64,000 nt of DNA from Lama glama (Eukaryota). The stretch covers positions 60,822,001 to 60,886,000 of the forward strand of contig CM052828.1 in assembly GCA_028534125.1 (NCBI GenBank), written 5' to 3'. The notes under the pieces are model-generated. The model saw only the letters and a program-made list of their open reading frames with translations, was not told the origin of the DNA and searched no databases. Numbering within the stretch: position 1 is the stretch's first letter; every line of letters begins with the position of its first letter. This document shows, piece by piece, positions 12,142-22,164 of the stretch. The position numbers and the translations under genes are program-made.

Positions 12142-12307
12142 GCCGTTCCTCAGCTACCGGAGGATGTACTATGTGTTCATCCAGATGCTGTCCAGCGGGC
12201 CCGCCTGGCTGGCCATCGTCCTGCTCGTCACCGTCAGCCTCCTGCCCGACGTGCTCAAGAAAGTGCTGTGCAGACAGCTGTGGCCCAGTGCCACCGAGAG
12301 GGTCCAG
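12142..12307 (+). CDS. ATP11A: ATP11A coding exon (approx. exon 28), last constitutive coding exon
   Basis: ctgcag|G CCG...CAG|gtaccg; 166 nt, phase 2 to 0; PFLSYRRMYYVFIQMLSSGPAWLAIVLLVTVSLLPDVLKKVLCRQLWPSATERVQ (TM10). Confidence 0.96.
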
Positions 12308-13476
12308 GTACCGCCCCGCCCCGGGGTCTCAGCGGGAGGCCGGCCTCACGGAGGAGGGCCTGGAAGCTTGGGTTTGGGAGTGTGACCAGCCCAGCACTGC
12401 TAATGAGTTCCCCGATGACAGGTGCTTGTCAGCGCTAAGCAAGGTAACATTCCAGGTGGCCAGGGTTGAGAGCTGAACAGCGTAGTTGGCTGAAATAAGA
12501 AACAGACTGAGAGAGAAAGGTTAAGCCAGTACAGAAGACAAATTATTTTGTGTAAATTCAAAAAAGTTTTTTTTATTAATCATTGTTTTGAAGTTAGAAT
12601 TGCATTACCTCTAGGGGAGGTGGATTTGGCTCAGACCTTAGCGTTTGTCCTGGGACATCCTGGTTATGAGCAGGCACTTGCTTCCACACTCCCAGACGAG
12701 GCCAGCGGCTGGATCCTGGGTTCAGGGAAGAAGTGAGACACACAAAAGGCCCAGCTGACTTCAGACACAGGATGTTACTCGGAGCTTCTGAGACCGCTCT
12801 GCCCCCTGGACTTCCCGGGGAGGGGACGCTCCCCCACCCCCCCCACTGTGACCCCCCGTCCCTCCCCCCATGACCCCCTGTGAGCTGCCCTCGGAGGTGC
12901 AGAGCCTCAGGGCGGAGGAGGAGGGTGGCGTGAAAGGGCCGAGCCCCCGCCGGGCAGCTGGGGAGGGTGCTTGTCCAGGCGAAGGGGGCGGGCGCGCAGG
13001 TGGGGGGCTGGAGAGAGGGTGGAAACTTTACAGGACGTCCACCCGCGGCCCCCGTAGTCTCGGCCCTTCAGTGCAGGTGGCCCTCCCCTGGGCTGGGGCC
13101 CCACCTCCGCCCATCCTGGCGGGTGACAGGACCGGCATGGGGAGCTTTCTTAGCTCTCGGGCTCATTTACTCCTGAGCTCAGGCCCCAGGCCCCAGGCCT
13201 CGGGAGTCCTCTGTGTCATTCCTGCCGGGTTTGTAAAGTCAGTGCTGACAAATCTCAGGAGGTCAGAGCAGGAGACCCACTGTGGGAAGTGAGGGCTGCG
13301 GCCTCCGAGCTCAGCGGACGGTGGACGCTGCGGCCGTCTGACCGTACTCACCGCCTTCTCTTGTCTCTTCTCTTGCTGGTTCCTCTCGTCTTCCGGCCTC
13401 TTTGCCCAAATAACCATCCTGTCTAACGATGTGCATGGCCTCCTGACCTCTGACCTCTGACCTCTGGGACCGGCAG

Positions 13477-13554
13477 ACTAGGAGCCAGTGCCTTTCTGTC
13501 GAGCAGCCCACCGTCTTTATGCTTTCCCAGACTTCCAGCGGTCTGACTTTCTAG
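13477..13554 (+). CDS. ATP11A: ATP11A canonical C-terminal exon (29a-like); exon spans 13477-13563
   Basis: cggcag|ACT...TTC TAG cgggacaag|gtgatg; TRSQCLSVEQPTVFMLSQTSSGLTF*, matching my recollection of the human tail TKSQCLSVEQSTIFMLSQTSSSLSF. Confidence 0.93.
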   Translation, partial: TRSQCLSVEQPTVFMLSQTSSGLTF

Positions 13555-15549
13555 CGGGACAAGGTGATGCCTTCCTGTCTTCTCGCACGTTTGGGGTTGA
13601 GTCGCAGGATGCGGGGGCCTGGCGTGTAACCTCGGGAGGCACGAGCGCAGCCCTGGCTGGGAGGTACCGGGCCGCAGCGTCCGGAGATGTGGGCACGGGG
13701 CGGCTTCCATCCAGGCACCAACCAGTCCATTGGAAGCGTCAGGGCCCACCTGCCTGGAGGCTGCACGTCTGTGGAGGGTGGGGAGCCGGCTGCCACCACG
13801 CTGGTCCTTCCACGGGGCCCCTCTGCAGCCCCGGGGACGAGGGCAGGTCCTCTCTGCCACTCGCCCACAAGCCTGGCTCTGCATTCGGGGTCCAGGGCCC
13901 CACAGGAGAGGCAGACTGTGGGCAGAGCCGGGACAGACATGTTTGCGGTCAGCTCTTTTACCAAATTCCCTTTTCACTTTTTTTTAAGAATCTGATTGTT
14001 TTTAGGAAAAGGCTCTGCCTTTGCTTTAAGTGGCTGCAGTGCCCCTGTCTTAGCGACACAGAGCCGTGAGCCTGGGGTTTTCTGTGCCGGCCGCCTGGGG
14101 CCCAAGGCTTTCCGTCCAGAGCCAGGGCTTTGGGGACAGAGCTTACCTGTTTCCGGGTGTTTGTGTACCTGAAGGCCCCCTTTGTGTGGCCTCCAAATCC
14201 GGCAGACTTTGCGGGCCTGTGTTTGCTGTTACAGCTTTACCAAGGCCGCGTGCTTCATAGGAAAATGCCTAAACCGAAAAAAAAAAGCCTTTTTCTTTCC
14301 TTTTAGTAATGGTTCATGTTCTATAAAGGTTTAGCAGTGTTTTTTAATTAACAAGACATGCATCTTTAAGTTCAGGTAATTGTTGGGAATCAAAATTGTT
14401 CTAATCTGGTGCCATTAGAATCTGTGAGAATAAATTACATGATTTCGTTTTGCTGTTTTCATACCTGAAAACGTGTAGGATGAAATTATTAGGAACACTT
14501 TTAATAAGTCACAGGAGGTGCTTATGAAATTGGCTAAGTCATGCCAGCTCTGGGCTGAGAACACATACTCTATTGATACAGTTAATCAAGAGCTGATTTG
14601 CTTCTGAACCTTTGTGGAAGCCAGACCCTGGCTGCTTGGGGCCAGGGGCAGCACTGAGCCCCACGGCCGCGCTGCCGGGACCCGGGGGCGCCCCACCCAC
14701 CCCTCACGGGGCCCCTGCCGCCTGCGTGCTCCCCGCGCGCACGGGGTCGGCGCTTTGTGGCTGTGTATCGCCTGACCTCGGCAAAACTTTGGAGGAATAA
14801 ACGTTGACTAGTCCTTAGGTGGAACATCCCACACTTCAAACATGTGGTTTTGTCTTTTAATCTGTCCTGTTGAAAAGAAAAACATCGCTGGCCCCATTTC
14901 ATGTATATTCATATACGTGTGTGTGCACATGTGTCAGCCCTGTGTGTGTGCGTTTATTCCATCTGTGTTCATCTTTCTGTACGGTTGTCTCGTCTCCGCC
15001 CCTGCAAAGAGCAGCAGTGCTGGTCGGCTCTCCCGCTCCTCGTCTGCATCTCCAGCCTTGTGGTTCTTCCACTCCTCAAATTCCCTTCTTCCTCGATGCT
15101 GAGAAACTCACACGGCTTGCCTTGAAAACCTGAGTATTCTGACGCCCAGCCCCGCTGACCTGCAGCCCCACGACTCCTTAGGCGTCCAGGATTCTGGGCT
15201 CAGGCCGGGGCTCTTCCGTTTGACTGGAGAAGGGGCCGAAGGACAGGGCCAGACAGGCACACAGAGAGGGACAGAGGGGCGGGCAGGTGCAGAGTTCCCG
15301 CAGGCCTGGGGGCCTTTGGGGGAGCACCGCCGTCAGGAAATTGCTCAGGAGGCATGCGGTGAGTGGGCCGGACCCTTAGCGCCAGGCTTCAGCACTCTGG
15401 ACAGTGGCCTCTGCTGCGCCCAGCGTGGCAGGTCCCTTGGGGGACGCCCCGGCCCGGCCTCCTCTCTGTGCCGTGTCCCCCTCATTGCCCCACAGAGCTA
15501 GGGGCCGTGTGGCCGCGGCACAGGCTCAGTGTCTGTCCTCGCCTTGCAG

Positions 15550-15642
15550 AGGAGCCCGAGCCGCCCAGCCCCGGCCGACACCGCGCCGAGCCCCGACTGG
15601 CCTCTCCTGAAGGACCCCGAGCCGCGGCCGAGGCGCGAGTAG
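15550..15642 (+). CDS. ATP11A: ATP11A alternative C-terminal exon (29b-like); exon spans 15550-15653
   Basis: ccttgcag|AGG...GAG TAG cccgcggatag|gtaacg; 104-nt exon; phase 0 gives RSPSRPAPADTAPSPDWPLLKDPEPRPRRE*. Confidence 0.68.
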   Translation, partial: RSPSRPAPADTAPSPDWPLLKDPEPRPRRE

Positions 15643-16598
15643 CCCGCGGATAGGTAACGGCCGCCCGGCGGGCAGCCCGTGTGCTGTGCTCTTGCCGACT
15701 GCCTGTTCTTCCTCCAAAGTTTTGCTGTGCTGTGCCGTTTCTGATAGGTTCATGATAAGAAAGAAATGCTTTACACACGTGTGCTCTGTCCCAGGTAAGT
15801 GGCCTGCCCAAGAGGCCGGGCCGAGGAGGGCAGCGTGCTGCACACATGTAGGCACATGTGCACACACACCTGTGCAGCACACACCCCTGGGTACACGCAC
15901 ACTGGGCGGACATCGCCGCACACCAGGCAGGCATCATCGCACACGTGATCACACGTGATGAGTGTCAAGAACCTAGCTCACCTCGCCTGCGGCTGTGGGA
16001 ATAGCTTCACCCAAAAGGTGGAGTGGGAAAGACCACATTTTGACATAGAAAAAGGAACATGGTGTGATTGGTCCTGCATGTTGGCCAGGGCAGGTGTCCA
16101 TCGGCTGGGAGTGGAGCTTTGGCCTGAGAGATGTGAATGTGCAGCCACGTCCCCAGTGTGTCCTGAGCTGGACCTCAGGTGTGACCAGCACGGCTGCCTT
16201 CTCCGTCAAGAAGCCGGCTCTCCTGCCGGGCTACCCCACCCCTTCCCATCTGTTCTGTTCAACCACATGGGCCGGGCGAGATGTCCATGGGTGGAGACAG
16301 GCTGGCCTGGTGGGCAGGAGGCAGGTTTGAGCGAGGCCAGCACAGCCATGTTGGAGGTGCCATGCGCAGCCTGGGGCCCAGGGAGGCGCCCTGTGTTTTG
16401 ACCCACATCCACACACGGTGGGCCCGAGAAGGGGGCACGGTCTCGGCCAAGACGCAGTCCACACGTCACCTCTGCGTCTGGTTCGGGCAGTGGGCGCCAC
16501 CTGCCTGCGCTCTGGAGGGAGCCCTTCCAGGTCAGGTGGGCGTCAGGTGGGATTCCCACGGGGGTCCTGGTTCTGACTGTCCTTTCTGTTCCCGACAG

Positions 16599-16655
16599 AC
16601 CGCGCACGTGGTGTCAGGACCACCTCTCCGAAGTTACCCCCTTGCCTCTCTGTAG
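16599..16655 (+). CDS. ATP11A: Start of ATP11A terminal exon; coding only when upstream tail exons are skipped (TAHVVSGPPLRSYPLASL*)
   Basis: cctttctgttcccgacag|ACC; retains the PLASL block I recall from the human long-tail isoform (..SEFTPLASLQSP..) but stops right after it. Confidence 0.7.
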   Translation, partial: TAHVVSGPPLRSYPLASL

Positions 16656-19600
16656 ACCCCCACCCCAGGCAGCGCCCCTTCCCAGCCCTGGTCTCTCAGA
16701 CTTCCTGCCTGTCCAGCTGGAGACCCTGCCCCCATGGCCCAAGGGGAGGCCAGAGGGACAGATCACCGTGCCAGCCCTTAAGAGCCACACAGTGTGTGCC
16801 TCTCCTGGCAGAGAAGGGAGGGAGCACGATGGAGGATGCGGCAGAAGCCGTCCCATTCCTGCACAGCTCGGCGGTGACTACAGAGGACACAGCATGGAGC
16901 CCCGTCCCTCCATGAGGACATCTGCTTGGAGACCGCGGTCCGTCCAGGCAGAGGCCGCACCACGACCTCCAGGCCAGGGAAGCACAGCCTGGACGTGCCC
17001 TCCGACGTGGGGGTCTGAACCCCCTGCTGCTGATCTCCCAGTACCCCTGTTTTCTGAACTGGCCGGCAGGCCCCAGTGACCGGCACCACTGACGCTGCTG
17101 TCGGAGCCCTGCGCCAGGAAGCTGGCTGATGCATCCGATCCCGAGCCCGCTTCTCTGGGGGGGCCGGCACTGGTGTGTTTGGGGTGTCTCCTCTCCACCC
17201 CCCGCTGCCTCTGTGCGGAGGAGGCCACCGTCCATTAAAGCTTCTCAGCGCAGGGTCTGAGATACGTCGTCACACCCCCGAGGACCAGCTGGCCGGTTTG
17301 CTGTTGCCGGGAACTGCTGGCTTCAGGGCGCTGAGGGGAAGGGTGGGGTCTGGGTGCCCAGGTAGGCATCTGGCTGTGGTGGTCAGAACCCCTTTCCAGC
17401 GTCCCTACCGAGAGTGGCCTCTGGGGGTGGTGCTGTCTCCCCAGGTCTGTGTCGGGCTCCCTGGGTCTGACCAGGTGGCTGGGAATCCTAAACAGCAGTA
17501 CCGCGCCCGGGGCCACCACCCTCACTGACCAGGCCTTGCTCCGAGCTGTCCGCCTGGTCCCTGCTCTGCAGCAGGTGCCAGCGGCGCTTTCTTTGGGGTG
17601 GGAAACCACCGCCAGGCAGCTGCCGTGTGAAGTCCCTGTGCTTTTCGGTACCTTTATCTCTGTTTCTAGAAATAACCCATTCGACGTAGCCTTAACGGTC
17701 CATAAACAAGACATTTCAGTCTGAGATTCAACCTTCAGATAGTAAAACCGATGCCTTTTTAGGAAAGCGTCACCCAGAAGCTAAGCGTTGTTCCCCTGCT
17801 GGGTTCGCCTGCGGGACTCGGGGACGTCGTGAGCAAACACTGAGTCCTCTTCTGAGATGCTCGATGTTAGGGGTTTGGGGAAGTTCCACTTTCACAGTTG
17901 GACTGTATGATGTTTTGCCTGTAAAATACTTATCTGAACTGGGGGGTGAATTAGCAGTGAGAGCCGTGCACACAGGTAGCTGGCATGAAGGGCGAACACC
18001 TACCAAAGACGAGGATGAAGGGCGCGGGCTCCGAGTGGGATGGGGGCGGCGGCACCTGTCCGTCCAGGGGCCTCCAGCCCACTCCCTGCCCTCTGTCACT
18101 CCTGCCCCACTGCCTGTGTGTGGTCCACAACACCCTGCAAGCAGTGGGGGCATTTTTACAGCCGTTTTTAAGAACCTAATATGGGTATAAATGTAATACC
18201 TGTGGGGGCAGATCCTCTGTGTGTTTAGTTAACAAATTCTTTGTAATGTATTTTTTTAGAAATCTTAAAACTGCCTTTGCACTGAAGTATTTTCGTAGCT
18301 GTTTATACCTCTTTTATTCTTTCATTTGTTACTGCACCATTTCTAATTTTTAAAGTATGTTTTTAAAGCTTTTATTTTTTAAGTTGATGAAATTTTGGCC
18401 ACTTTACATTTGAATTCTGGTGGGAGTTTTGGCTGAATGTCTCAATAGCTGGTGAATGTGAATTTTCAGATTTGATTTTATTCTCAACATCTGTTCGTTT
18501 TTTGGTGTTTCCAATGGGAATGGGTAGTTAAAAGGCATCTTTAGTGTATGACAATTTGCTGTGCTTTTTCTTCACAATTCATTGCAGTTGCATCTGCTTT
18601 TTGTTCGGGTTTTCATTTCTGTCCTTCAGCCTTAAAGTAGAAGCTTTTGATGGTTAGGATTGAGATGGTCGCCGTTTACCACGGGTAGTTCAAGCCTCCT
18701 TATGAAGGTCGCTGACCTTTACACGTTCCAAACTGTCTTTTTTAAATTGTCTGGGAAATTACTAAGTGACCGCCTGGTCACTGGAAATAAGCGAGGGGCC
18801 CCAGATAAACGGTGAGATGGAAGGAGGGAAGGACATTCCAGAGAAGACTTCACGCGGCCCGCCTCACGGTGGTCAGGACTTACTTGCCTTAAACCAACCT
18901 TAAGCAAGTAACTAACTGATGCACTTCCCTCGGTTTTGGAAATCTTAGTCTCAGCCGCACGTTAACGAATTCCTGCCGGCGTTTCCCACGTGGGTCCGGA
19001 CATCCGGGCCCTGACACGCACGCGTCCCCCGGCGCAAGCTGACCCTCGGCGCGTTGCTTGGCCACGTCGGTCCTGCCCTCAGGCCCGCGGCCCCCGGAGG
19101 CCGCGCCCGCGCCTGTGCAGCCTGGGCCTCGGTGCGGCTCCCCCCTCCCGGAAGTGCATCCGCAGCTGGCAGGAGGGGCCCCGTCAGACCCCCAGTCGGC
19201 CCGCAGCTGTGCGCTTGACGCCACGGGTGAACGCAGGCCAGGTGCCCCGCGAGGGGCCGGGGAGGCCAGCTTCTGCAGCAGCGGGTTCCTGCAAGTGTGG
19301 TTTGGCCTGGTGAGGTTTAGCAGCTTTAACTACAGAAATGCCTCACCACGCGCTGTCGCTGTTCCTAAATTGTTGGGCATCAACCAAAAAGTCAGAGCAA
19401 CCAGAGGGAAGTTCCCGGCCTTTTTCTTTAAAACCACTAAGTTCATCTGTTTTGCACTGATTGTTAATAACCTAATGCAGTCACTTCTGCTTCATCTTAA
19501 AATTAATGGTATTTATTTGACGACTCAGTGTAACAGCTTGCTATGCATTTCCTTTTAGAAGGTTCCCGTTTGTAACTTTAAAAACAGGAAAAATGTCAGT

Positions 19601-20290
19601 CGGCAGATGCATTCATTCTTTTGTTTTTCTTTACGTTAGAGGGCAGGTGAATGGGGGGGACACTCATTCGATGTTGTCTAGAAACAAAGCTTTAATGAAA
19701 TGTGATGGAGTATTATTAAAGTATGACTCTACTTTTGCAGAAAAAAATCTAAAGATCAGTTTATATAGCTTTATTTTTCACCTTATCGGAATATACAGAA
19801 TTTTAATATGCATATGTTGTCTCCGACTTAAAATTATAATGTGTGTCTGCATTGCTGTTTAAAATGTCCATTCATTATGTAATGTAGTAAAAGAGAATCT
19901 CCAGAAATGTATTTAAAACAGATGGTATCTATAGTTGTCACCATAAATACTGGAATTTACTTTTAAATTATTGAACATAGTAGGTGCGTTTAAGATAATA
20001 AGTCAGCCTCCAAACAGTAGTGTTTAACTGATAACAATTCACTAACCTGCTTTGAAAAATTAAATTGTGAATTAAACCAAATCTTAATTTCTGTAAAATT
20101 TACTTTGTATGCTATTATTTTTAACTTTTATTTCCGTAGGTAAATGATGTCTTCATAATATTAATTATAATTGGACTTTTCTGCAGATTATCTAAGCAGG
20201 AAACCTGAATCTGCTTGCAATAAAGAAGAGAGGGAAAATGTCTGGTTTAGTTTCTTTATAAATAAAAAAATAAAAGCAGAAAAGTTGGTC
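16656..20290 (+). other. ATP11A: ATP11A 3' UTR
   Basis: Follows the terminal-exon acceptor; AT/U-rich blocks at ~18170-18750 and ~19400-20280 contrast with GC-rich flanks; ends in clustered AATAAA. Confidence 0.8.
20219..20274 (+). terminator. ATP11A polyadenylation signal cluster
   Basis: AATAAA at 20219, 20261 and 20269 at the end of the AT-rich UTR, before return to GC-rich sequence. Confidence 0.75.
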
Positions 20291-22164
20291 TTAAATTTCT
20301 GCTAAGAGAAGCTGCAGGGTAAAAACACTCTCAAACCAAGTGTTTTTGTTTAGGATGAGGGAGGAGGGCACTGTGGGGCAGCTTCCCTGAGAACGTGTTG
20401 GGTGGGGTGGCTCCAGGGTCCCCTGCAACACAGACAGGAGGTGTCGGATTTCTTAACGCTGTCTGTTCCCTCCAGACTCGCCCCCAGACCCCCACGGCCT
20501 CGGGCAGTTACACAGAGCAGAAGGGCCAGTTCTTTGTGCCCACCCCCCCACCCTGGCCCTGCACCTCTTCTGGTGGCCACCGCCACCCTCTCCAGCTCCT
20601 GGCCTCCTCTGAGAACTAACCTCAAAAACACTCCACAAGTCCTGACGCCAGGTCCCAGTTCCTGGGATTCTGACTCCAGGGGACCAGGGAGGAGCCCAGC
20701 TGGGAACCAGCCTCATTGGGCAGGCTGGGGCTGCCCCTTCAAGGCTGACTGAGCTCAGCTCCGAACCCTGGGAGGCACCAGCTCCAACTTGGGGCTTTTT
20801 CCCGGCCCCCAAGCAAGCACACAGCGAGGGCAGAGTCACTCACCCTGAGTGGGTGACCTTTGCTGTCGGCAACCAAGTGCCAGCAGCCAGCACAGCTCAC
20901 AGGCACTCCAGGAAGTGGATGCTGCAGGTGAGTCCGGGTCCCGGGGCCCTTGTTCGCTTTGTCCAGCGTCCACACCTGCCTCAGGTGACCTGAAGGTGTG
21001 TCCTCCCGACAGCAGCTTTCGAAGCCGAGTGAGGCCCCCGGCCCAAGGCTGGGCAGGGGAACCGCCAGCGTGCTTGCCTGCGCCCATGTGAGCGCCCAGG
21101 CCTTTATTCCTCCAGGTCGTACCCTAACTTGATCAACCCTCACACCTTATTAAGCTTCCTCTTTCATGGAAAAGTCTTGGGAACACAATTTCTCAATCCC
21201 TTTCTTGCGTTAAAGGGGATACCACTGAAGCCACGTAAGCACAGGAGCTCTCCCAGGGAAGTGTGCGTTTTCACTATTTGGGCAGTGACTGCGGACACCC
21301 GGGGACGCGCACGCAGGTAGCAAGTGCCTGCCTCATCCCTGAGACACGTGGACTGGCCCTAGCCCGCCTGACACAGGCCCAGCAGCAAGCAGAGAAGCCC
21401 AGCGTGGACACCAAGCCCCAGAGAGCGGGCAGGCGTCCGGCTACAGCCGGCCCATCCTGCGTCGTCATCTGCTGTTTGACGCCAGGGAAGTTTTCCTGCA
21501 ACGCCCGGCAGCACCTTATCCAGGGCCCCGCTTCCATCCCTTCATGTGCCTGCTGAGCCTTCACCAAGGCGTGGGAACTCAGAAGCCCCTGGAACCCCTG
21601 GGGAGGCTGTGCCTCGCACCCGAGGGGCCTGTGGCAACGCTGTCCCAATGTATTTACCAAACCCTTCGTGAGAAATGGATTCCTGGGTGTACTGCTAACT
21701 AAGAAAATGGATTGTCCTTCAAAATTAGTCACACAAAATCATCACTTGAAAACAATTCACTCACCAATGCTCTTATTCACTTGGTTTTTACAAGATCCAA
21801 AGAGAGGGAAAGAGTTTTAAGATAATTAAGAGTAACATTTCCTTCGAGACTCAGATCGTTTTAATGCCTCTAGAATTTTAAAAAGACCTACTATAAATAA
21901 AGTCTCAAAATATGAGTTAAATATCAGAATAAACATGGTGCTTTAATTAGCTAAGATTCTGTTTTGGTTTTGAATATTATGGTTCCGAAATCTTTACAAA
22001 CTAGTTGAGCAAAAAGTATACATGACGTCAGGGGCAAATTACAGCTGAAGACACATCATGGCTTCGAATGTATCAAACCTGAAAACGCACTATTCTAGTA
22101 GCGCTCACAGGGAGTCTCGCACAGACACGCCGTCCCACTGGGAAGTAAATCTGTGCCTTTCTGT

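What the first reader, a model, noticed from the sequence alone, without database searches (positions are those of the whole stretch)
13340..16655. ATP11A C-terminal exon cassette whose stop spacing could let NMD enforce one tail at a time
Seen: after the phase-0 donor at 12307 there are at least three phase-0 tail options (13477, 15550, 16599). The two internal exons carry their own stop only 9 nt (13554 vs donor 13563) and 11 nt (15642 vs donor 15653) before the junction. Known: a stop more than ~50-55 nt upstream of the last junction triggers NMD. Inference: either exon alone escapes NMD, but co-inclusion puts the first stop 113 nt before the last junction. The flippase could thus swap cytosolic tails on a shared 3' UTR while double-inclusion products are destroyed. 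I recall human ATP11A hearing-loss alleles mapping to these alternative last exons, so the exons may be known; the NMD logic is my inference.
Basis: partly seen in the sequence, partly recalled or inferred. Interest (0 to 1): 0.72.

Follow-up and report, generated by a model that had tools for sequence, protein, structure and literature searches.

The report
Known ATP11A tail-swapping exon cassette
This camelid gene for a membrane lipid flippase picks one of three short protein tails by alternative splicing, as already described in human and mouse; because each tail exon carries its own stop codon, mRNA decay is not needed to keep tails separate, and the choice is likely set by splicing regulators and a predicted RNA duplex around one exon.

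Summary
Coordinates and distances are exact. Exons A (87 nt) and B (104 nt) and last exon C are real: RNA contigs of a related animal show five of six possible junctions, all but A>B (0 of 4 runs, weak test). The exons are known: A is in the human MANE transcript; B is ATP11A-203 exon 2 (mouse 104-nt exon), site of a deafness allele and a lung splicing QTL. The NMD idea is only partly right. An A+B mRNA would be an NMD target (113 nt), but it encodes the ordinary A tail, so NMD cannot be what enforces one tail; near-junction stops are generic for penultimate exons. Regulated splicing fits better: mouse B inclusion depends on MBNL1 and age. Added here, and not found in my 10 searches: paralog ATP11C has the same three-slot layout (stops 1 and 3 nt before donors; exon A homologous); a 17-bp perfect duplex brackets exon B (predicted loop-out, conservation untested); and the human c.*11G>A allele would move B's last junction 164 nt past its stop, predicting NMD.

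The parts
12142..12307 (+). ATP11A exon 28 (166 nt), last constitutive coding exon; phase-0 donor CAG|GTACCG
   Evidence: loose ends of RNA contigs match its 3' end
13315..13476 (+). 160-nt AG-free, pyrimidine-rich acceptor region of exon A with 15 PTB-type motifs in 200 nt, one TGCATG at 13432 and branch-point-like words at 13338 and 13347
   Evidence: 2 of 4471 AG gaps in the window reach 160 nt; regulatory role inferred
13477..13563 (+). Exon A: 25-aa tail, TAG 13552-13554, 9 nt before the donor; homolog of an ATP11C exon
   Evidence: (E28>A in X7 and X4; A>C in X7)
14781..14800 (+). Upstream arm of a 17-bp perfect (19 of 20) inverted repeat bracketing exon B; overlaps an AATAAA at 14796
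   Evidence: pairing predicted, conservation untested
15550..15653 (+). Exon B: 30-aa tail, TAG 15640-15642, 11 nt before the donor; counterpart of human ATP11A-203 exon 2 and the mouse 104-nt exon
   Evidence: (E28>B in X4, X11, X12; B>C in X11, X12)
15654..15853 (+). YGCY-rich intron start (12 motifs in 200 nt), containing the downstream duplex arm at 15706-15725
   Evidence: MBNL binding here is inferred
15792..15800 (+). Perfect-consensus alternative donor CAG|GTAAGT after 15794, 141 nt past the B donor; its use would put the B stop 152 nt before the last junction
   Evidence: not seen used; likely counterpart of the human cryptic donor at +153
16599..20290 (+). Exon C: 18-aa tail (TAG 16653-16655, frameshifted and truncated relative to other amniotes) and shared 3' UTR; 3' end approximate, near AATAAA at 20219-20274
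   Evidence: (three junctions into 16599; a 3626-nt contig from 16597 would end near 20222 if colinear)

Best explanation
This is the known three-way C-terminal splice cassette of the flippase ATP11A: exon 28 is joined to exon A, exon B or directly to last exon C, each exon supplies its own stop, and the choice is likely made by regulated splicing rather than by mRNA decay. Shown: the exons, five junctions, the tails, and the same layout in paralog ATP11C. From papers: B inclusion in mouse heart is higher in embryos and on Mbnl1 loss. Inferred: the stops sit 9 and 11 nt from their donors simply so that each isoform escapes NMD; B is likely repressed by MBNL1 together with a predicted 17-bp duplex that loops it out; A, with its long AG-free pyrimidine tract, is likely controlled separately by PTB-type factors; any A+B mRNA would be an NMD target, which would only trim output of the normal A-tail protein. 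By analogy with ATP11C the tails likely steer trafficking.
For: isoform arithmetic; A+B gives the 25-aa A tail; five junctions; X7 shows A only, X11 and X12 show B and skipping only, X4 shows both E28>A and E28>B; ATP11C: A' 91 nt with stop 1 nt before the donor, 11 of 25 aa identical to A without gaps, 0 of 300 shuffles as high; B' 105 nt with stop 3 nt before the donor; C' last; A' annotated in a rodent, a bat and a bird; PMC4356957: 311 vs 207 bp = 104-nt exon, raised in E18 and Mbnl1-null heart; penultimate-exon stops generally within 50 nt; duplex -32 kcal/mol, longest complex inverted repeat among 14 window tiles, 1 of 300 Markov nulls as long, 3 genome matches of the 17-mer, mean pair probability 0.96 in a 1-kb fold; ATP11 tails set localisation.
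Against: No NMD-inhibition data, so a real role for NMD in clearing A+B is not excluded, and ATP11C keeps the same NMD-sensitive arithmetic (106 nt). The duplex has no conservation or functional test and ATP11C shows no comparable one (longest 13 nt). YGCY sites downstream of an exon more often go with activation (own knowledge), whereas Mbnl1 loss raised B. The mouse gel itself was not seen, and an A-containing band of about 294 bp could run near 311 bp. B versus ATP11C B' similarity is not significant for 10 of 11 tails. Contigs drop rare forms and give no levels.
Confidence: 0.75

Rival explanations
1. A and B are spliced independently, A+B mRNA is made in quantity, and NMD removes it; B inclusion thereby acts as a 3' UTR poison exon that lowers A-tail output (the defensible form of the first reader's idea).
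For: 113 nt in ATP11A and 106 nt in ATP11C both pass the rule; no steric, U12 or competing-structure block between A and B was found; NMD clears double inclusion at Pkm2 (PMC3446288); A>B absent in 4 of 4 steady-state runs.
Against: The arithmetic follows from any second exon of 47 nt or more. Three of 4 runs showed only one of the two exons, so little A+B is expected there. Atp11a had 0 hits in the 6 readable supplements of a Upf2-null study (gene and GO lists, long cells cut). It would tune amount, not tail identity.
Confidence: 0.2
2. A and B are strictly mutually exclusive through a hard-wired splicing block (steric clash, U2/U12 incompatibility or competing RNA helices).
For: A strong duplex exists around B; A has a long AG-free zone of the kind seen at regulated exons; A>B not seen.
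Against: A-B intron is 1986 nt, so no steric clash; no U12 donor or branch motif in the five 200-nt flanks scanned; neither arm has a comparable partner upstream of A (best -17.7 and -23.7 versus -32 kcal/mol); flank-to-flank complements were at background (17 to 114 of 200 random pairs as long); A and B are not duplicates (1888 and 288 of 2000 shuffles); both can be skipped (E28>C in 2 of 4 runs).
Confidence: 0.05

Closest known systems
Human ATP11A 3' isoforms (NM_015205 with exon A, ATP11A-203/ENST00000415301 with the 104-nt exon, NM_032189 skipping both) and the mouse 104-nt exon (PMC9035003, PMC13314912, PMC10550956, PMC4356957)
   Same: 104-nt exon with stop 11 nt before its donor (c.*11); exon A stop 9 nt before its donor (read from the deletion name in PMC13314912, whose asterisks are lost in the text held); three tails on one last exon; a strong cryptic donor downstream of B.
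   Different: Camelid tail C is frameshifted and cut to 18 aa (82-85 aa in primates, sloth, lizard); cryptic donor at +141 rather than +153; the human study found B joined to three downstream sequences, here only one acceptor was seen. I found no NMD discussion in PMC9035003 (0 hits for nonsense, NMD, decay).
ATP11C C-terminal splice variants a, b, c (PMC11775268, PMC7530900, PMC5680300)
   Same: Same order in this genome: exon 28, a short exon homologous to A, a 105-nt exon (SVRPLL, ATP11C-a) with its stop 3 nt before the donor, last exon (LLSY, ATP11C-b).
   Different: Camelid tail B has PLL but proline, not serine, four residues before the first leucine, so the PKC-dependent endocytic motif is not intact; B/B' homology rests on position, length and PLL, not on significant alignment; no equivalent duplex in ATP11C. 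That A' is the brain isoform ATP11C-c is my inference; its defining paper was not read.
NMD-policed mutually exclusive exons, Pkm type (PMC3446288, PMC11062102)
   Same: Double inclusion yields a predicted NMD substrate.
   Different: There double inclusion creates a premature stop and an aberrant product; here it leaves a normal protein, the exons are not duplicates, and double skipping is productive.
Exon loop-out by long-range complementary regions (PMC8052449)
   Same: Strong intronic duplex whose arms flank one exon, with RBP motifs at one arm; looped-out exons have lower inclusion.
   Different: Conservation, which defines that class, was not testable; ATP11A is not named in the main text; its Supplementary Data 4 (1135 candidates) was not read and may list it.

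Membership tests
NMD-enforced mutually exclusive exons (Pkm type) | Each exon alone gives a stable, NMD-immune mRNA | tested here: met
   9 and 11 nt; A>C and B>C junctions in RNA contigs
NMD-enforced mutually exclusive exons (Pkm type) | Double inclusion gives an aberrant protein that decay must prevent | tested here: not met
   A+B encodes the normal 25-aa A tail
NMD-enforced mutually exclusive exons (Pkm type) | Exactly one exon is used; double skipping is not productive | tested here: not met
   E28>C in 2 of 4 runs, stop in last exon; 38 of 120 proteins carry tail C
NMD-enforced mutually exclusive exons (Pkm type) | The two exons are duplicates | tested here: not met
   A vs B: 1888 of 2000 (protein) and 288 of 2000 (DNA) shuffles score as high
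NMD-enforced mutually exclusive exons (Pkm type) | Double-inclusion mRNA rises when NMD is blocked | not testable with these tools
   No NMD-inhibited runs; A>B 0 of 4 steady-state contig sets
3' UTR-junction unproductive splicing (AUF1 type) | Normal stop placed more than 50 nt before a junction by alternative splicing | tested here: met
   By sequence only: A+B 113 nt, B with the 15794 donor 152 nt, ATP11C A'+B' 106 nt
3' UTR-junction unproductive splicing (AUF1 type) | That isoform is actually made and regulated | tested here: inconclusive
   Neither junction seen; contigs drop rare forms and no contig covered 15654-15852
ATP11C-type C-terminal cassette | Three alternative tails after exon 28, two on stop-bearing cassette exons, in the same order | tested here: met
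ATP11C-type C-terminal cassette | Homology of the exons between paralogs | tested here: inconclusive
   A/A' met (11 of 25 aa, 0 of 300 shuffles, aligned splice sites); B/B' significant for 1 of 11 tails only; C/C' not tested
ATP11C-type C-terminal cassette | Phospho-serine dileucine signal S-x-x-P-L-L in the middle tail | tested here: not met
   Camelid tail has proline at that position; serine or threonine occurs in mole, cat and bird tails
Exon loop-out by conserved complementary regions | Stable duplex with arms on both sides of the exon | tested here: met
   17 bp perfect, -32 kcal/mol, non-repetitive; prediction only
Exon loop-out by conserved complementary regions | Arms conserved across vertebrates and disruption changes inclusion | not testable with these tools
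   No orthologous intron DNA was available

The most novel reading that the evidence does not exclude
Exon B is held in an MBNL-linked RNA loop-out switch, its near-junction stop is what keeps the B-tail mRNA alive, and the human deafness allele c.*11G>A acts by moving the last junction 164 nt past an unchanged stop so that NMD removes the B-tail flippase, which would be the cochlea-critical isoform hit by all reported ATP11A hearing-loss alleles and the one shifted by the lung fibrosis/COVID splicing QTL.
Probability: 0.3. Interest if true: 0.65.

Novelty: already known. Interest (0 to 1): 0.38.

Why it matters
The cassette is ordinary in kind but sits on disease alleles whose mechanism is called unclear in PMC9035003. 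The part of the NMD logic that has force is not double inclusion but the predicted conversion of the B isoform into an NMD target by the c.*11G>A allele, which is testable with patient cells and an NMD block. If the duplex is real, blocking one arm with an oligonucleotide would be a direct way to shift B inclusion, the junction tied to IPF and COVID-19 severity (PMC10550956). The ATP11C comparison shows the layout predates the split of the two paralogs and suggests which trafficking assays to run on the little-studied B tail.

Tried and rejected
Steric, U12 and competing-helix exclusion: not found. ATP11B: no A- or B-like exon in 24 kb after its exon 28 (best scores 27-36); the first stretch taken for ATP11B (C2) was a different P4-ATPase. 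The DM1 event 'ATP11A.a' (PMC7844414) is a 63-nt exon by its amplicon sizes, not this cassette. Atp11c appears in a liver GO list of the Upf2-null study without junction detail; not used. No Rfam family in 13000-21000. A second 17-nt inverted repeat (14917/15853) is GT/CA-repeat derived and was set aside. Gaps in contig cover at 14286-15546 and 15654-15852 could reflect a filter or assembly and are not evidence of conservation. In run X4, high cover of the B-C intron with no A>C or B>C contig may be unspliced RNA or DNA; not interpreted. The AUNA2 paper (PMID 36300302) is not held and Takayama 2019 was not read; both may describe these isoforms. Searches for prior NMD treatment: ATP11A + nonsense-mediated + exon 29 gave 0 papers; ATP11A + NMD + alternative splicing gave 5, 4 listed, of which I read one and judged the others off-topic from the listing.
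Full report
Observation. Exon 28 ends in phase 0 at 12307. Exon A (13477-13563, 87 nt) encodes 25 aa and stops 9 nt before its donor; exon B (15550-15653, 104 nt) encodes 30 aa and stops 11 nt before its donor; exon C starts at 16599 and encodes 18 aa. Upstream exons in the window match full-length ATP11A proteins. The A tail equals that of a protein annotated from Camelus bactrianus and the B tail that of one from Camelus ferus, so the window is from a camelid. Of the 120 proteins listed (of 233 hits), 14 carry tail A, 22 tail B, 38 tail C, 41 read into the intron and 5 are other. Tail B has counterparts in birds, turtle and snakes.

RNA. Contigs of 4 of the 24 listed runs, from 4 studies of a related animal, were laid on 13000-17400. 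They show E28>A (X7, X4), E28>B (X4, X11, X12), E28>C (X11, X12), A>C (X7) and B>C (X11, X12). Junctions from exon 28 are read from loose ends that match its last bases. A>B was seen in 0 of 4. This is a weak test: only X4 showed both exons, and it showed neither A>C nor B>C; contigs drop rare forms, two runs are only guessed to be RNA, and no DNA control was laid.

The NMD idea. Enumerating isoforms: A alone 9 nt, B alone 11 nt, A+B 113 nt from stop to last junction, so by the 50-nt rule only A+B is a target. But A+B terminates in exon A and makes the ordinary A tail. No hybrid tail can arise, so one tail per mRNA is guaranteed by the stops themselves. In the Pkm2 case double inclusion creates a premature stop (PMC3446288, passages); here it does not. 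The same paper reports that RefSeq stops in penultimate exons nearly all lie within 50 nt of the last junction, so the spacing is what any expressed isoform needs, and a second exon of 47 nt or more yields the double-inclusion effect automatically. A and B are not duplicates, and skipping both is productive. NMD could still trim A output when B is co-included; that is untested.

What is known. PMC9035003 (parts 1-4 of 6 read, plus supplement passages) describes the 104-bp exon as ATP11A-203 exon 2 and mouse exon 29, with the deafness variant c.*11G>A at its last base, which activates a donor 153 bp downstream; its main text has no hit for nonsense, NMD or decay. PMC13314912 (passages) reports a 5162-bp deletion that leaves the MANE coding sequence intact but removes this exon and the start of the last exon, and summarises a German 5.5-kb deletion and the exon 28 duplication. 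PMC10550956 (passages) identifies the exon 28 to B junction as a lung splicing QTL for COVID-19 severity and IPF. PMC4356957 (passages and supplement parts 2 and 4) shows a mouse 'exon 28a' of 311 minus 207 = 104 bp, between primers in exon 28 and the last exon, that is higher in embryonic and Mbnl1-null heart; I saw the size labels, not the gel. PMC12148042 (passages) calls it a rare exon whose role is unclear.

Paralog. In the same genome ATP11C (G000:C37, minus strand) has the same layout: a 91-nt exon at 88753357-88753267 with its stop 1 nt before the donor, whose codons align with exon A without gaps from the acceptor (11 of 25 identical; 0 of 300 shuffled queries score as high over the introns) and whose donor aligns too; a 105-nt exon at 88752599-88752495 carrying SVRPLL with its stop 3 nt before the donor; and a last exon with LLSY. 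Double inclusion gives 106 nt. The A-like tail is annotated in 3 of 120 listed ATP11C proteins, from a rodent, a bat and a bird. B versus B' is not significant for 10 of 11 tails, so that homology rests on position, length and PLL. ATP11C tails are known to control endocytosis and polarity (PMC11775268, PMC7530900, PMC5680300; passages). ATP11B showed no such exons in 24 kb.

How the choice is likely made. No steric or U12 block exists (A-B intron 1986 nt). Exon A has a 160-nt AG-free pyrimidine tract (2 of 4471 AG gaps as long) with 15 PTB-type motifs, equal to the maximum among 319 fixed tiles; motif definitions are recalled. The 200 nt after B hold 12 YGCY, above the tile maximum of 11, fitting MBNL control, although the direction (repression) is not the usual one for downstream sites. 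A perfect 17-bp inverted repeat has arms at 14781-14797 and 15709-15725, on either side of B. It is the longest non-repetitive one in 14 tiles of the window (next 14 nt), 1 of 300 Markov sequences reached that length, the 17-mer has 3 matches in the genome, two of them these arms (a lower bound), and it forms in a 1-kb fold with mean pair probability 0.96. Looped-out exons tend to be skipped (PMC8052449, passages). Neither arm has a comparable partner upstream of A, so this is a predicted repressor of B, not a competing-helix switch. Conservation could not be tested, and ATP11C has no equivalent.

Tail C is decayed in this lineage: the residues shared with sloth, lizard and horse lie in the +1 frame, and the spliced frame stops after 18 aa, as in goat. 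The camelid effectively has two conserved tails and one degenerate default.

Where NMD may matter. The camelid has a perfect donor 141 nt past the B donor, the only one scoring 80 or more between A and C on a recalled matrix; using it gives 152 nt. The human allele uses a donor at +153, which gives 11 + 153 = 164 nt with the B protein unchanged, so NMD of the B isoform is predicted. Against: the longer products were amplified from patient B cells and the methods I read mention no NMD inhibitor; no quantification was given. That all four alleles hit B is shown for three and inferred for the German deletion from a second-hand description.

Verdict. Real and largely known; the proposed exclusivity role of NMD is unnecessary. 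The additions (paralog layout, duplex, allele-to-NMD prediction) were not found in my 10 searches of an open-access library that lacks two key papers, and unread supplements may already list the duplex. Earlier scan notes on ATP11A concern other features; none were found for this cassette.

Noticed in passing
window 14781-14800 and 15706-15725: Perfect 17-bp non-repetitive inverted repeat bracketing exon B; the upstream arm overlaps an AATAAA at 14796, so pairing could also mask an intronic poly(A) signal.
   Followed up: partly
window 15794/15795: Perfect-consensus donor CAG|GTAAGT 141 nt past the B donor, stronger than the donors in use; likely counterpart of the human cryptic donor.
   Followed up: partly
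window 14429 and 14796: Two AATAAA signals with T/GT-rich sequence downstream in the A-B intron; use would turn exon A into a terminal exon with a short 3' UTR.
   Followed up: no
window 16599-16655: Tail C is frameshifted and truncated in camelid and goat and varies from 18 to about 85 aa among mammals.
   Followed up: yes
G000:C37:88753357-88753267 (L003): ATP11C exon homologous to ATP11A exon A, nearly invariant from mammals to a bird, with stop 1 nt before its donor.
   Followed up: yes
window 15853-16625, run X4: Contig depth over the B-C intron is close to that of the last exon and no B>C contig appears; retained intron, nascent RNA or DNA cannot be told apart.
   Followed up: no
window 14917-14933 and 15853-15869: Second 17-nt inverted repeat of GT/CA-repeat type that also flanks exon B and crosses the first duplex.
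   Followed up: no
window 13443-13466: Tandem 7-mer (3.4 copies) just upstream of the exon A acceptor that supplies three branch-point-like words.
   Followed up: no
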